NCBI RefSeq assembly: GCF_009914755.1
Contig: NC_060925.1
DNA: 64,000 nucleotides
DNA from: the human T2T-CHM13v2.0 reference genome, Homo sapiens
Direction: 5' to 3' (one strand)
Shown here: in pieces, positions 35,666 to 58,657 of the stretch
How the letters are laid out: every line of letters starts with the position of its first letter
How positions within the stretch are numbered: the first letter of the stretch is position 1
The notes under the pieces: generated by a model
The model's database searches: none
The model's input: the letters and a program-made list of their open reading frames with translations, nothing else
Told to the model about the DNA's origin: nothing
Position numbers and translations under genes: made by a program

Positions 35666-36225
<560 letters not shown>

Positions 36226-37451: not shown

Positions 37452-37805
37452 TTAAATTGGTAAATTTTACATTAGGCTTTACCATACACACAAAAAAATC
37501 ATCACAATATATAAGGAACTCACACTATTCAATTGCAAAAAAAAAAAAAAAAAACCTCTGATTACGAATGGGCAAAAGACCTGGATAGACATATTTCCAG
37601 AAACATACAAATGGCCAACAAGTTTATGAAAAGATGCTCCACATCACTAATCATCAGGAAAATGCAAATCAAAATCACAATGAGGTATCACTTCATATCT
37701 GTTAGCATGGTTATTATCAAAAAGATAAAAGATAACAAGTGTTGGTGAGGATGCGGAGAAAAGGAAATCTTGGTATACTGCTGGTGAGAATATAAATTAG
37801 TATAG

Positions 37806-38773
37806 GCTGCTCTGCCTATGGAGTAGCCATTCTTTATTCCTTTACTTTCTTAATAAACTTACTTTCACTTTATGGACTTGTCCTGAATTCTTTCTTGCAC
37901 AAGATCCAAGAACCCTCTCTTGGGGTCTGGATCAGGGCCCCTTTGCAGTAACATCTTTCTGGCAAACCATGGAAGGGACAATACTGAGGAGATCCTCCCG
38001 ACCCAAAAGAAATAGACTGCAGCACTGATTGGCCAACTCTGGATATCACCTTTTGTCGGAACTCGGAGTTATAAGCGACCCTCACCCTGACGCTTTCTGA
38101 CTGAGCTCCTCTCTATCCTGAATACAAGAGACCCTAATAATTAGACAGGAATATCATTGCCCCTATTCAGCATGAAAAAGTTTACAGAAGATGGATCTTT
38201 GTCCCTCTGCAACCCTTAGGATTAAGGGTTCTTTTATAAAAGGGAGAGGGGAAATGTCACAGGTGTTTGAACTAGAGCAACTTCATCTTAAGTAGGGGCT
38301 GGGTAAAATAAGGCTGGGACGTACTGGACTGCATTCCCAAGAAGTTAGACATTCTAAGTCACAGGATAAGATAGGAGATCAGCACAAGATACAGGTCATA
38401 AAGACCTTGCTGATAAAACAAGCTGTGGTAAAGAAGCCAGCTAAGACCCACCAAAACCAAGATGGTGATGAGTGACCGCTGGTCGTCATTGCTGCTCATT
38501 ATATGCTAATTATAATGCATCAACATGCTAAAAGACATACCCATCAGCACCATGACAGTTTACAAATGCCATGGCAACGTCATTTTACCCTATATGGTCT
38601 AAAATGAGGAGGCATGAATAACCCACCCCTTGTTTAGCATACGATCAAGAAATAACCACAAAAAGGGGCAACCAGCAGCCCCTGGGGCAGCTCTGCCTAT
38701 GGAGTAGGCATTCTTTATTCCTTTACTTTCTTAATAAACTTCCTTTCACTAAAAAAAAAAAAAAAAAAAAAAA
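37806..38773 (+). mobile_element. Processed (L1-retroposed) MER41A-type ERV1 transcript: R-U5-PBS-leader/3' internal-PPT-U3-R-poly(A)
   Basis: R sequence ctctgcctatggagtag.cattctttattcctttactttcttaataaactt.ctttcact at both ends; LTR CA end at 37953; polypurine tract 38238-38254 then TG at 38255; A24 tail; 19-bp TSD with 17/19 identity. Confidence 0.88.
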
Positions 38774-38837
38774 AGAATGTAAGTTAGTATAGCCATGAAG
38801 GAAAACAGGATAGGGGCTCTTTAAAAAATTAAAAATT

Positions 38838-39138
38838 GGCAGGGAACAGCGGCTCATGCCTGCAATCCCAGCACTTTGGGAGGCCGAGGTGGGCAGATCA
38901 CCTGAGGTCAGGAGTTCGAGACCAGCCTGGCCAACATGGAGAAACCCCGTCTCTACTAAAAATACAAAATTAGTCAGGCGTGGTGGCACATGCCTGTAAT
39001 CCCAGCTACTCAGGAGGCTAAGGCAGGAAAATCACTTGAACCCAGGAGGCGGAAGTTGCAGTGAGCTGAGATCGTGCCATTGCACTCCAGCCTGGGCAAC
39101 TAAGTGAGACTCCGAATTAAAAAAAAAAAAAAAAAAAA
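38838..39138 (+). mobile_element. Alu (AluS-like)
   Basis: Dimeric Alu with TSD aaaaattaaaaat. Confidence 0.9.
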
Positions 39139-39326
39139 TTAAAAATAGAACCATCCTATGATTCAGCAATTCCTCTTCTGGGTATATACCAAAGGAAATG
39201 AAATCAGTAGCTTAAAGACATATCTGCACTCCCATGCTCAGTGCAGCATTATTCACAATAACCAAGATAAGGAAATAACCCCATTGCCAGATGAACGGAT
39301 AAATTGTGATACATATTTAAAATCAC

Positions 39327-39650: not shown

Positions 39651-40714
39651 AATTCACATTACGTCACAATTATTTTTAGTGCTCTCTCTCTCTATATATA
39701 TATATATAAAGTATACATAGTACAGATTATGTAGAATATTCTATATATTTATTCTATATATTCTATACTATATGTATTCTTTGTGTGTGTATATTCATCC
39801 ACACACACACATAGCAAAGAAAGCAAAGTACAAAAGAGTACCTCTAATGTGCTACCTTTTGTGTATGAAAGAAGAATAAGAAATATACAAGTACCTATTC
39901 ATTTGTGGAAAAAGAAACACAGGAAGCAAAAACCAGAAACAAATCAGACTGGCTACCCACAGGAGATGGACAAAACTGGGTGGGAAGGAGGCACTGGAAA
40001 CAGAGTACACAGGATGGGGAGCAGTAACACTTCTGAGTATCTGTTTTTGTAAAATTCTGATGTTTAGAACCATGTTTGTGTTTTGCCTAATCAAAATAAA
40101 ATTTTAAAATCAGCAAGGATGGGGGAAATAAAACCCAAATGAATACAAACACAAACAAATGAATCTGTTATTTTAAATGAGTATCATAACCACACTGAAG
40201 GAGGGTGAAGGAAAGGTAGAACTGACCCAAGTAACTTTTGAACACAGTATTCTGACTATACTCTCACGCTGAATATAAAAACAACTGTAAAAAAATTCTG
40301 AGCTCTAATTAGAAGGTTTATTTTCCACAGAGGTATGGATTTACAAATCTGAAACTACTATTATTAGAATACTAAGTGTATTCTATGATGAGCAATTAGA
40401 TAAACATTGTGGATAATGGGAGTCAAATTTCTTACTGTCAGAGAACAAATACAAATATGGAAAGGGAGAAGGCAGAAATGAACCCTGTGGTATTAGACTA
40501 TAATTAAAGTATCTGGATGAACTTATTATTATGTAGACAGACAGATACAGAACTAGATATGTGCACAGACATATATACAAACATGTATTTCCCAGCACTG
40601 GCCTCTGAGAGGGCCTAGAAGCAATGATACACCAGTAGCAACAAGCACACCTGGCACTCAGATCTTGGTTTCTAAATACCATTTACCACTAAATGGAACC
40701 AGGGCTTTTGGTTG

Positions 40715-41520
40715 GTACTGCCGTCTTCCAGTAATTCACCAAAACGACAAACACAGGGAAAGAGAAGAATTACCCAATATATGTTCTCTAGGCCTTTTAG
40801 AAAACATGGAGTTGTTCCTTGGGCCACGTGCATGCAAATCTATAAGAAAGGCAATACTGTAGACATCAAGCGAACGGGTACTATTCAAAAAGGAATGCCC
40901 AAAAGCATTACCTGGGAAAAACTGGAAGAGTCTACAATGTTACCCAGCATGTTGTTGGCACTGCTGTAAACAAATTAAGGGCAAAATTCTTGCCAAGAGA
41001 ATTAACGTGCACATTGAGCACATTAAGCGCTCTAAGACCCAAGATAGCTTCTGAAATGCATGAAAGAAGATGATCAGAAAAAGAAGGAAGCCAAAGAGAA
41101 AGGTACCTGGTTTCAGCTGAAGCACCAGCCTACTCCACCCAGGGAATCCCACTGTGTGAGAACCAACGGGAAGGAGCCTGAGCTGCTGGAACCTATTCCC
41201 TATGAATTCATGGCATGATAGGTATAAAAAAATAAAAGACCTCTGGACTGCAAAATTGTTTCTCTTTATTTAGTAGAGAAGTGTGGTGTCCTCTCCCCCA
41301 AAAAAATATTTAAAGCAGATTTTAATTGTGTCCTAACTCATTGTGTAATGTCTTTACTGTTCAGACTTAGTATTTTTCTTGCTGAAAGATGTGAGGTGGC
41401 TTATCGTGCAACAAATTACTCAACTGGTTAGAAAACAATCAGATATTATTTATGAAATACTTGTACTGGTTTGAAGATAGTCCTTCTAAATCATAAAAAA
41501 AAATTTACAAAAAATAAAAA
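40715..41520 (+). pseudogene. Processed pseudogene of ribosomal protein L21 with an extended 3' tail (start codon mutated to ACG at 40744; stop 41216-41218)
   Basis: Intronless [14 protein letters not shown]...[17 protein letters not shown]...[14 protein letters not shown]...[16 protein letters not shown] with frameshifts; TSD aatggaaccagg at 40692-40703 and 41820-41831. Confidence 0.95.

Positions 41521-54871: not shown

Positions 54872-58657
<3,786 letters not shown>

What the first reader, a model, noticed from the sequence alone, without database searches (positions are those of the whole stretch)
37787..38792. L1-retroposed, apparently spliced MER41 endogenous-retrovirus RNA (ERV processed pseudogene)
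Seen: the element has the layout of viral RNA, not of a provirus. It starts at R (37806), then U5 ending in CA (37953), a PBS-like tggcaaaccatggaagggac, only ~280 nt of internal sequence, PPT aaaagggagaggggaaa, U3 from TG (38255), R with AATAAA (38733), and A24. A 19-bp TSD (37787-37805 / 38774-38792) flanks it instead of a 4-6-bp integrase TSD. Established: this architecture is the hallmark of L1-mobilised ERV transcripts, best known for HERV-W. Inference: the junction near 38042/38043 (actctgg|atatcacc) is a donor-to-acceptor splice that removed the whole coding interior. The copy would then record the TSS, splice sites and poly(A) site of a ~0.95-kb non-coding MER41 RNA once expressed in the germline or early embryo. 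U3 resembles MER41A, the form lacking the tandem STAT1 sites.
Basis: partly seen in the sequence, partly recalled or inferred. Interest (0 to 1): 0.8.

Follow-up and report, generated by a model that had tools for sequence, protein, structure and literature searches.

The report
L1-retroposed spliced MER41 retrovirus RNA
This is a dead DNA copy of a short, spliced RNA from the ancient MER41 retrovirus that the L1 element's machinery pasted into an ALDH9A1 intron, and several sister copies elsewhere in the genome show that L1 copied this virus's RNAs repeatedly.

Summary

**The copy.** Window 37806-38750 reads R-U5-PBS-leader | 3' interior-PPT-U3-R, followed by A24 and a 19-nt target-site duplication (17/19). 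It sits in an old L1. Three uninterrupted L1 paralogs carry the duplicated segment once.

**The splice.** The junction 38042|38043 is a real splice.
- In unspliced genomic paralogs the leader continues into GT in 19 of 22 loci, mostly GTAAGT.
- The 3' block is preceded by a pyrimidine tract and AG in 18 of 22 loci.
- The interval removed is 3.5 kb in one paralog.

**Sister copies.** Seven other loci carry the same junction, and all start at the same first base of R. Five of them have A-tails and their own duplications in unrelated flanks.

**Other isoforms.** The same donor also appears joined to three other AG acceptors, and one copy is doubly spliced. Three of these loci show L1 hallmarks.

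**Family scale.** Of 30 leader-bearing loci sampled, 15 start at R with no U3.

**Subfamily.** The U3 lacks exactly the 43-nt tandem-GAS block, which is the published difference between MER41A and MER41B.

**Novelty.** The kind is known (HERV-W; one spliced HML-2 locus). MER41 appears to be a new family for it. I found no function.

The parts
37539..37786 (+). Left flank: fragment of an old L1 (ORF2 3' region), the target of the insertion
   Evidence: Aligns to L1 paralogs in the window (57799-58063) and at C11:86.91 Mb and C5:77.21 Mb (83% identity).
37787..37805 (+). 5' copy of the target-site duplication (AGAATATAAATTAGTATAG)
   Evidence: Direct repeat with 38774-38792, 17 of 19 identical. 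Present once in 3 of 3 uninterrupted L1 paralogs.
37806..37869 (+). R, 5' copy; its first base is the inferred transcription start of the source LTR
   Evidence: 95% identical to 38686-38750. 15 of 30 leader-bearing loci start at this same base with unrelated upstream DNA.
37870..37953 (+). U5, ending in ...GTAACA
   Evidence: In proviral-type copies this sequence follows R in the 3' LTR (16 of 30 loci). It ends 6 nt before the PBS-like TGG.
37960..37979 (+). Primer-binding-site-like sequence TGGCAAACCATGGAAGGGAC
   Evidence: Same place and similar sequence in the leader-bearing loci listed. The matching tRNA was not tested.
37954..38042 (+). Leader exon downstream of U5, ending at splice donor SD1 (...CTCTGG|)
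   Evidence: In unspliced paralogs the next bases are GT in 19 of 22 loci, and GTAAGT in 16 of them.
38043..38254 (+). Last 212 nt of the viral interior, starting at splice acceptor SA1 (|ATATCACC), with the polypurine tract at 38238-38254
   Evidence: In unspliced paralogs it is preceded by ...cttattaatcttccAG (AG in 18 of 22 loci). The purine tract is conserved over the copies listed.
38255..38685 (+). U3 of MER41A type. It starts with TG, has a TATA-like CACAAAAA about 30 nt before R, and lacks the 43-nt tandem-GAS block between 38612 and 38613
   Evidence: The 43-column gap against the C15 copy. Block present in 8 and absent in 18 of 33 loci. The printed MER41B-derived 26-nt motif matches 38622-38647 with 3 mismatches, 0 expected by chance.
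38686..38750 (+). R, 3' copy, with AATAAA at 38733-38738 and the cleavage site after ...TTTCACT
   Evidence: Ten of 30 loci end at this same point and continue with an A-rich tail.
38751..38774 (+). Poly(A) tail, 24 A (the last A may belong to the TSD)
   Evidence: 24 A in the first 25 bases after R.
38774..38792 (+). 3' copy of the target-site duplication (AGAATGTAAGTTAGTATAG)
38793..38837 (+). Right flank: continuation of the same L1 fragment, soon interrupted by an Alu
   Evidence: Aligns to the L1 paralogs directly after the single TSD segment. Alu-like matches begin at about 38838-38851.

Best explanation
A MER41A-type provirus elsewhere in the genome was transcribed from its 5' LTR. Transcription started at the first base of R, about 30 nt after a TATA-like box. 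The RNA was spliced from the leader donor SD1 (GG|GTAAGT) to an acceptor SA1 that lies 212 nt before the 3' LTR. It was then polyadenylated 12 nt after the AATAAA in R.

The resulting RNA of about 945 nt has no long open frame. The L1 machinery reverse-transcribed it by target-primed reverse transcription at a nick in an older L1 fragment, in what is now an ALDH9A1 intron. The result is an insert R-U5-leader|3' interior-U3-R-A24 between 19-nt duplications, antisense to the gene.

The copy lacks an upstream U3, so it was promoterless on arrival and is a fossil. The same RNA species was retroposed at least seven more times, and other splice isoforms and unspliced RNA of the same virus were retroposed too. 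The divergence of the copies puts these events roughly 45-60 million years ago.

Shown: the anatomy, the TSD and its single copy in paralogs, the GT-AG signals, and the sister copies. Inferred: that L1 was the enzyme (from these hallmarks), that the RNA was present in germline cells, and the age.
For: **Anatomy and TSD.**

**Paralogous empty site.** Single copy in 3 of 3 L1 paralogs.

**Splice signals in unspliced paralogs.**
- GT in 19 of 22 loci.
- AG in 18 of 22 loci.
- The interval between them is 3528 nt in the C7:140.31 Mb copy and about 4.65 kb, with Alus, in the C1:244.23 Mb copy.

**Same junction in 8 loci including the window**.
- 8 of 8 start at the first base of R without U3.
- 6 of 8 end in an A-rich tail after R.
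- TSDs differ and lie in unrelated flanks: 17 nt at C20:47.07 Mb and 19 nt at C14:65.77 Mb. Shorter ones were read by eye at C4, C10 and C20:45.5 Mb.
- These copies carry both LTR types: 43-nt block absent in the window and C4; present in C15, C20:47.07 Mb, C20:45.5 Mb and C10. More than one source provirus therefore made the same splice.

**Other isoforms using SD1**.
- SA2: ttttttcAG|AGTCAAGG.
- SA3: caatttAG|.
- SA3': tttttcAG|.
- One SD1-SA2/SD2-SA1 doubly spliced copy.
- Poly(A) plus TSD at X:48.09 Mb (11/11), C20:5.22 Mb (13/14) and C6:112.13 Mb.

**Unspliced full-length R-to-poly(A) copy** with a 15-nt TSD at C14:97.09 Mb.

**No long ORF.** The longest ORF on the + strand of the element is 34 aa.

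**Age.** Pairwise K2P among 6 of the 8 same-junction copies is 0.18-0.24.
Against: - The bases at the nick read TG|AGAA rather than the textbook TT|AAAA. The TSD has 2 mismatches.
- One same-junction copy (C15:56.15 Mb) shows no A-run and no recognisable TSD. One (C12:98.32 Mb) is cut off inside U3.
- 4 of 22 acceptor-side and 3 of 22 donor-side paralogs lack AG or GT today. I read this as decay.
- In the doubly spliced C6 copy, the second junction is about 4 nt away from the GTGAGT seen in the C7 copy.
- I cannot exclude that a re-integrated 'spliced provirus' (LTR-0.3 kb-LTR) was the immediate template. None was seen among the 8 junction copies, but each search scores only the 40 best candidates.
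- No orthologous empty site and no expression data could be examined.
- The family name rests on a 26-nt printed motif, the 43-nt indel and my recall of the consensus, not on a Dfam alignment.
Confidence: 0.92

Rival explanations
1. The short interior is a plain deletion, not a splice. It could have arisen in the source provirus, during L1 reverse transcription by template jumping, or at this locus after a full-length retrocopy had inserted.
For: Large recurrent internal deletions are common in HERV-W copies (PMC5016936 passages). One locus (C15:48.47 Mb, L032) has sequence after the donor that I could not place cleanly.
Against: Both break points fall to the base on GT (19 of 22) and AG (18 of 22) of unspliced paralogs, with a pyrimidine tract before the AG. 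The identical junction occurs in 8 loci with different TSDs and in both LTR subtypes. The same donor is joined to three other AG acceptors elsewhere.
Confidence: 0.03
2. A spliced RNA was first packaged and re-integrated by the retrovirus's own enzymes, as described for spliced HERV-H. This would give a short LTR-0.3 kb-LTR element. That element, not full-length proviruses, was the transcription unit that fed L1.
For: Retrotransposed spliced HERV-H elements are cited in PMC3590776 (passage; the Goodchild 1995 paper itself was not seen). Such a short master would explain why this isoform is the commonest retrocopy (8 loci).
Against: 0 of 8 junction-bearing loci have a 5' U3 or a 3' U5. The copies carry two LTR subtypes, so at least two such masters would be needed.
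Confidence: 0.05
3. An ordinary MER41 provirus or recombined LTR pair inserted by retroviral integrase, with the A-run and the 19-mer repeat being chance features of A-rich L1 sequence.
For: The target is A/T-rich L1 DNA, in which short repeats are easy to find.
Against: There is no U3 before the 5' R and no U5 after the 3' R. The A24 run starts exactly at the shared cleavage point used by 10 of 30 loci. The 19-mer is single-copy at the homologous place in 3 of 3 L1 paralogs. Published TSDs for MER41-type ERVs are 4 bp (PMC11905727, Table 1 passage).
Confidence: 0.01

Closest known systems
HERV-W processed pseudogenes (L1-mobilised HERV-W RNA; Pavlicek 2002 and Costas 2002 as cited, Grandi 2016 PMC5016936, Grandi and Tramontano 2017 PMC5537654)
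   Same: R-U5 ... U3-R layout, poly(A) tail, long TSD and many copies per family. The families are related: both are placed in the HERVW9 supergroup (PMC4724089 and PMC5753468 passages).
   Different: A different LTR and interior family, and older: copies here differ pairwise by about 0.2 (K2P). HERV-W pseudogenes are described as copies of genomic-length RNA with recurrent deletions. Here the copy, and at least four isoforms in the family, are spliced at GT-AG sites. The reviews state that HERV-W is the only HERV group mobilised by L1, which these loci contradict.
HERV-K(HML-2) locus 2q32.1, a retrotransposed rec-like spliced mRNA (Schmitt et al. 2013, PMC3590776; passages read)
   Same: An L1-type retrocopy (poly(A), 13-nt TSD) of a spliced retroviral RNA.
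   Different: It is a betaretrovirus-like group and a single locus, and the RNA encodes an accessory-protein-like ORF. The MER41 RNA here has no ORF above 34 aa on its own strand and occurs as 8 copies plus other isoforms.
Spliced HERV-H elements in genomic DNA (Goodchild 1995; known to me only through the citation in PMC3590776 and from recall)
   Same: Genomic copies that lack an intron of the viral RNA.
   Different: By recall, those retain two LTRs and were made by retroviral reverse transcription. The copies here run R to poly(A) and have L1-type TSDs.
Cellular processed pseudogenes such as RPS13P1 and RPL21P27 in the same intron
   Same: Same mechanism and the same hallmarks: intron loss, poly(A) and TSD. 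They are neighbours within 3 kb on either side, on the same strand (hub annotation).
   Different: The template is a retroviral LTR-initiated RNA, so the copy carries a complete U3 promoter/enhancer at its 3' end.

Membership tests
L1-mediated processed pseudogene (retrocopy) | Colinear with a mature RNA from transcription start to poly(A) site | tested here: met
   Starts at the first base of R and ends 12 nt after AATAAA. 15 of 30 leader-bearing loci share this start. 10 of 30 loci share this end.
L1-mediated processed pseudogene (retrocopy) | Intron removed precisely at GT-AG | tested here: met
   GT after the leader in 19 of 22 unspliced paralogs. AG before the 3' block in 18 of 22.
L1-mediated processed pseudogene (retrocopy) | Untemplated poly(A) tail | tested here: met
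   A24 at 38751-38774. Proviral copies read TTACTCTATGGACTC... (U5) at that point instead.
L1-mediated processed pseudogene (retrocopy) | Target-site duplication of about 7-20 bp, single-copy in the empty site | tested here: met
   19 nt, 17/19. Single-copy in 3 of 3 paralogous L1 elements. The orthologous empty site is not testable with these tools.
L1-mediated processed pseudogene (retrocopy) | Nick site resembling TT|AAAA | tested here: inconclusive
   The window reads TG|AGAA. Sister copies read GT|AAAA, AC|AAAA, TT|AATA and TT|AAGA (read by eye).
MER41 (MER41A LTR with MER41-int) | Alignment to the Dfam/Repbase consensus | not testable with these tools
   No repeat library is on hand. My own recognition of the LTR is recall.
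MER41 (MER41A LTR with MER41-int) | Sequence printed in the literature as MER41B-derived | tested here: met
   The 26-nt MEME motif of PMC2897888 matches 38622-38647 with 3 mismatches and 0 matches in 100 shuffles. It had no exact match in the 94 loci held at that point.
MER41 (MER41A LTR with MER41-int) | A and B subtypes nearly identical except for a 43-bp block with two STAT1 sites 21 bp apart | tested here: met
   The window lacks exactly 43 nt that 8 loci carry. In X:48.09 Mb the two TTCNNNGAA motifs start 21 nt apart (string). Published description: PMC9963469 and PMC2897888.
MER41 (MER41A LTR with MER41-int) | Close similarity to the 'MER41.AIM2' enhancer LTR | tested here: not met
   The LTR upstream of AIM2 (located via the HIN and PYRIN exons) gives only a weak local alignment with the window LTR: score 25.5 against a shuffle maximum of 19. 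Against a B-type copy it gives about 240 nt: 56.5 against 18. This does not count against membership. Frith 2025 (PMC11905727) reassigns that enhancer to ERV-Saru, which is 59% like MER41G.
MER41 (MER41A LTR with MER41-int) | PBS for tRNA-Arg/Trp type | not tested
   The PBS-like string is present and conserved. No tRNA sequence was compared. Published types: 'W' (supplement of PMC4724089) and Arg for the MER41E interior (PMC11905727).
Provirus or solo LTR inserted by integrase | Complete LTRs (U3-R-U5) at the ends and a 4-6-bp TSD | tested here: not met
   No U3 upstream of the 5' R (score 17-19 against 136-162 in proviral copies). No U5 after the 3' R. The TSD is 19 nt.

The most novel reading that the evidence does not exclude
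MER41 is a second human ERV group, besides HERV-W, whose RNAs were copied by L1 on a family-wide scale. About half of the leader-bearing copies sampled start at R with no promoter.

These retrocopies fossilise the transcriptome of a gamma-type retrovirus that was active about 45-60 million years ago. They record one start site, one poly(A) site, a leader donor, at least four acceptors and an internal donor. One doubly spliced, apparently non-coding RNA is among them, with a layout otherwise associated with complex retroviruses.

The abundance of the 0.95-kb SD1-SA1 RNA among the retrocopies (8 loci) would then mean either that it was a major viral transcript in the germline or that it was an unusually good L1 template.
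Probability: 0.6. Interest if true: 0.7.

Novelty: new member of a known kind. Interest (0 to 1): 0.6.

Why it matters
Reviews of the field state that HERV-W is the only HERV group mobilised by L1 (PMC5537654). This locus and its relatives show that statement is too narrow.

For annotation, many 'MER41 proviruses' would really be promoterless retrocopies. That changes copy counts, LTR-divergence dating (the two R segments of a retrocopy come from one RNA), and which loci can be expected to be transcribed.

Each retrocopy also deposits a complete U3 enhancer/promoter at its 3' end. L1 may therefore have helped spread MER41 regulatory sequence, including the STAT1-binding B type: 8 of the loci scored carry the block.

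The retrocopies also give base-exact start, splice and poly(A) sites of an extinct virus without any RNA data.

For ALDH9A1 itself I see no evidence of an effect. The insert is intronic, antisense and of the subtype without STAT1 sites.

Tried and rejected
- **Papers not held:** Pavlicek 2002 (PMC155283) and Chuong 2016 (PMC4887275). What I say about them comes from other papers' passages or from recall.
- **Empty literature search:** one search returned nothing because its terms were too narrow.
- **Pfam scan of the removed interval:** I scanned 18 stop-to-stop pieces of at least 35 aa from the SD1-SA1 interval of the C7:140.31 Mb copy. No family came below E = 0.01. I therefore cannot say which genes the intron once held. 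Frameshifted remnants shorter than 35 aa were not scanned.
- **Rfam:** at gathering thresholds it finds nothing in 37500-39100.
- **Tying the family name to the AIM2 enhancer:** this gave only distant similarity. Frith 2025 explains why.
- **Vargiu 2016 tables:** the main locus tables are old .xls files and could not be read, so no published MER41 locus list was compared with my loci.
- **Loci left unexplained:** C15:48.47 Mb (L032) and C13:44.86 Mb (L021) have sequence after the donor that I could not resolve into clean splices. I left them out of the isoform list.
- **3' ends not fetched:** the SD1-SA2 copies (C14:83.9 Mb; X:150.95 and 151.05 Mb) were not completed, so their poly(A) and TSD are unknown.
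- **Segmental duplication considered and rejected:** it does not explain the eight copies, because their flanks and TSDs differ.
Full report
**1. What is in the window**

The features are:
- A 65-nt segment at 37805-37869 recurs at 38686-38750 with 95% identity. This is R at both ends.
- After the 5' R comes an 84-nt U5 ending in CA at 37953.
- Six bases later comes a TGG-initiated primer-binding-site-like 20-mer.
- Then come 89 nt of leader and 212 nt that end in the purine tract AAAAGGGAGAGGGGAAA.
- These are followed by a U3 that starts with TG at 38255, and the second R with AATAAA at 38733.
- Twelve bases after that signal the sequence turns into 24 A.
- The whole is framed by AGAATATAAATTAGTATAG / AGAATGTAAGTTAGTATAG, 17 of 19 identical.
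- There is no U3 before the first R and no U5 after the second.
- The rest of the window holds no other copy of the element.

**2. The 19-mer is duplicated target DNA**

Both flanks belong to one old L1 fragment from the ORF2 3' region. I aligned 'left flank plus 19-mer' and '19-mer plus right flank' separately to uninterrupted L1 paralogs. In each case the two alignments overlap on one and the same stretch, which is then followed by the right-flank sequence. The paralogs were window 57888-58109, and C11:86.91 Mb and C5:77.21 Mb, which are 83% identical to the flank.

That is 3 of 3 paralogs with a single copy. It stands in for the empty site, but an orthologous empty site in another primate could not be examined with these tools.

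**3. The junction is a splice**

The assembly that holds the window can be searched. The 301-nt interior matched 7 other loci over its whole length. More than 30 loci matched only from query position 89 onward, which corresponds to window 38042/38043.

- **Acceptor side.** In the 22 loci of that sample that lack the junction, the bases before the 3' block read ...cttactgaatgttttcttaaactgaacacttattaatcttccAG|ATATCACC. AG is present in 18 of 22. The other four read AT, AT, GG and TG.
- **Donor side.** A second search with the leader gave 22 loci in which the leader runs on into different sequence. GT follows the junction point in 19 of them, and GTAAGT in 16. The exceptions are ATAAGT, GCAAGT and one copy shifted by a base.
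- **Size of the intron.** In the C7:140.31 Mb copy, donor and acceptor are 3528 nt apart. In the C1:244.23 Mb copy they are about 4.65 kb apart, with several Alu-like insertions.

**4. It is one of a set**

Eight loci including the window share the SD1-SA1 junction: C15:56.15, C20:47.07, C4:81.10, C12:98.32, C14:65.77, C20:45.52 and C10:17.11 Mb. A junction-centred search found no further ones among its 40 scored candidates, so eight is a lower bound.

- All eight begin at the same base, GCTGCTCTG..., with unrelated upstream DNA and no U3.
- Six end in an A-rich tail right after ...TTTCACT(T). One (C15) ends there without an A-run. One (C12) is cut off in U3.
- TSDs differ from locus to locus. 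A 17-mer (16/17) lies at C20:47.07 Mb and a 19-mer (17/19) at C14:65.77 Mb. I read shorter ones by eye at C4, C10 and C20:45.52 Mb.
- Pairwise K2P distances among six of the copies are 0.18-0.24 with no close pairs.

These are therefore independent insertions, not segmental duplicates.

**5. Two LTR subtypes made the same splice**

The window's U3, aligned to that of the C15 copy, shows one gap of exactly 43 columns, between 38612 and 38613. I scored 33 loci for this block:
- 8 carry it.
- 18 lack it (0-2 nt at the site).
- 7 could not be scored.

Among the SD1-SA1 copies, the window and C4 lack it. C15, C20:47.07, C20:45.52 and C10 carry it. The block holds two TTCNNNGAA motifs whose starts are 21 nt apart in the X:48.09 Mb copy.

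This matches the published descriptions:
- The MER41B consensus has two GAS sites 21 bp apart (PMC2897888 passages).
- MER41A is nearly identical to MER41B except for a 43-bp deletion that removes them (PMC9963469 passage).

The same paper prints a 26-nt motif derived from MER41B. It matches window 38622-38647 with 3 mismatches, and none of 100 shuffles gave a match.

This is my basis for the name. No repeat library was available, and my own recognition of the LTR is recall.

As a second tie I located the LTR upstream of AIM2, using the HIN and PYRIN exons. It is only distantly similar. Frith 2025 reports that this enhancer is an ERV-Saru LTR, about 59% like MER41G, and not a typical MER41 (PMC11905727 passages). 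The weak match therefore says nothing against the assignment.

**6. Other isoforms and unspliced RNA were retroposed too**

The same donor is joined elsewhere to other downstream points. Each of these is preceded by a pyrimidine tract and AG in the unspliced C7 copy.

| Join | Context in the C7 copy | Loci |
|---|---|---|
| SA2, 1.05 kb upstream of SA1 | ttttttcAG\|AGTCAAGG | C14:83.9 Mb; a duplicated pair at X:150.95 and 151.05 Mb |
| SA3 | caatttAG\| | X:48.09 Mb |
| SA3', 18 nt upstream of SA3 | tttttcAG\| | C20:5.22 Mb |

The C6:112.13 Mb copy joins SD1 to SA2. It then leaves that exon after about 125 nt, at or within about 4 nt of a GTGAGT, and resumes at SA1. It is a copy of a doubly spliced RNA.

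Evidence for L1 hallmarks in these copies:
- X:48.09 Mb has a TSD of 11/11, and C20:5.22 Mb one of 13/14. Both start at R and end in A-tails.
- The C6 copy has about 19 A and a TSD of about 13 nt (read by eye).
- I did not fetch the 3' ends of the SD1-SA2 copies.

The C14:97.09 Mb copy is unspliced. It runs from the first base of R through 4.6 kb to R-poly(A) and has a 15-nt TSD.

In the two samples:
- 15 of 30 leader-bearing loci start at R without U3. Six of these are spliced, eight unspliced and one unclear. A further 12 have a proviral 5' LTR and 3 are unclear.
- 10 of 30 loci with the 3' interior end in poly(A). Sixteen continue into U5 and four are unclear.

Both samples were ranked by similarity to this retrocopy, so these fractions are biased upward.

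**7. Mechanism**

The shared 5' end lies about 30 nt after a TATA-like box. That box reads CATAAAAA in proviral copies and CACAAAAA in the window's own 3' U3. The shared 3' end lies 12-14 nt after AATAAA.

The copies are therefore full-length cDNAs of LTR-initiated, spliced, polyadenylated RNA. The A-tail, the TSDs of 8-19 nt that begin with A-rich sequence, and the absence of LTR regeneration are the marks of L1 target-primed reverse transcription. L1 itself is inferred from these hallmarks, not shown.

The RNA has no ORF above 34 aa on its own strand and no Rfam match. Pfam found nothing in the removed interval of the one copy scanned. 'Whole interior' is therefore shown, and 'coding interior' is not.

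The mean K2P of 0.21 gives about 48 My at 2.2e-9 per site per year, assuming a star-like history. At 1.3e-9 it gives 82 My, which is too old for a simian-only family and probably reflects CpG decay. The published age of MER41 is 45-60 My, with entry in a simian ancestor.

**8. Comparison with what is known**

L1-made retrocopies of retroviral RNA are well known for HERV-W. Grandi 2016 classified 135 of 213 loci this way, as quoted in PMC5537654. One HML-2 locus is a retrocopy of a rec-like spliced mRNA, and the same passage cites retrotransposed HERV-H elements (PMC3590776). The kind is therefore known.

For MER41 I found no report. The searches were:
- 'MER41' with 'processed pseudogene': 14 papers. 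I read passages of three of them and saw only the listing for the rest.
- 'MER41-int': 7 papers, listing only, plus passages of one.
- 'MER41' with 'L1-mediated': 6 papers, listing only.

Two reviews state that HERV-W is the sole group mobilised by L1. Subscription papers and the unreadable supplements of Vargiu 2016 may hold something I could not see.

**9. Verdict**

The locus itself is an inert fossil in an intron, antisense to ALDH9A1, beside two ribosomal-protein retrocopies.

Its value lies in what it reveals about the family. MER41 RNAs, in several splice forms, were repeatedly copied by L1. This extends a phenomenon thought to be peculiar to HERV-W and preserves the splice map of an extinct virus.

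Noticed in passing
window 35693-36168, 37787-38792, 40705-41249: Three L1-type retrocopies lie on the + strand within 5.6 kb of one ALDH9A1 intron: RPS13P1, the MER41 RNA copy and RPL21P27 (the two pseudogenes per the hub annotation). This may be a local hot spot for L1 endonuclease in A/T-rich old L1 sequence, or it may be chance.
   Followed up: no
window 38838-39140 (approx.): An Alu-like element sits in the same L1 fragment about 45 nt downstream of the 3' TSD. It matches many Alu-like stretches in the fetched loci.
   Followed up: no
L094 (G000:C1:158213300-158215800), LTR at about 158213900-158214630, minus strand: The LTR upstream of AIM2 carries the tandem GAS pair. Otherwise it is only distantly similar to the MER41A/B-type LTRs studied here. 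This agrees with Frith 2025, who reassigns it to ERV-Saru.
   Followed up: yes
L093 + L098 (G000:C6:112131800-112133800): This is a retrocopy of a doubly spliced RNA (SD1-SA2, exon of about 125 nt, SD2-SA1) with poly(A) and a TSD of about 13 nt. Its 3' R is split by a later Alu. The small exon has no ATG in this copy.
   Followed up: partly
L054 / L055 (G000:C23:150.95 Mb and 151.05 Mb): Two identical SD1-SA2 retrocopies lie in opposite orientation about 100 kb apart on the X chromosome, with identical flanks in the parts held. This looks like an inverted segmental duplication of one insertion.
   Followed up: no
L027 / L028 (G000:C21:11.88 Mb and C18:14.78 Mb): Two proviral-type 3' ends have the same sequence at every point I printed. 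They are probably a pericentromeric duplication shared by two chromosomes.
   Followed up: no
L050 + L019 (G000:C14:97.09 Mb): An unspliced, full-length R-to-poly(A) copy with a 15-nt TSD has also landed in L1-like sequence (flank ...aaaatacaaatcaaaaccacagtgag), close to the homologous L1 region hit in the window.
   Followed up: no
L035-L058, leader-bearing loci with U3: Proviral-type copies mostly have 244-439 nt between the start of R and the leader probe, against 153-171 nt in the retrocopies and in three proviral copies (L051, L057, L060). The retrocopies may therefore stem from a subset of proviruses with a short R-U5. Later insertions were not excluded as the cause.
   Followed up: no
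L058/L091/L024 (G000:C7:140314900-140318427): The 3.5-kb interval between SD1 and SA1 of this copy has no Pfam-detectable gag, pol or env in pieces of at least 35 aa. This fits a non-autonomous, heavily deleted interior.
   Followed up: partly
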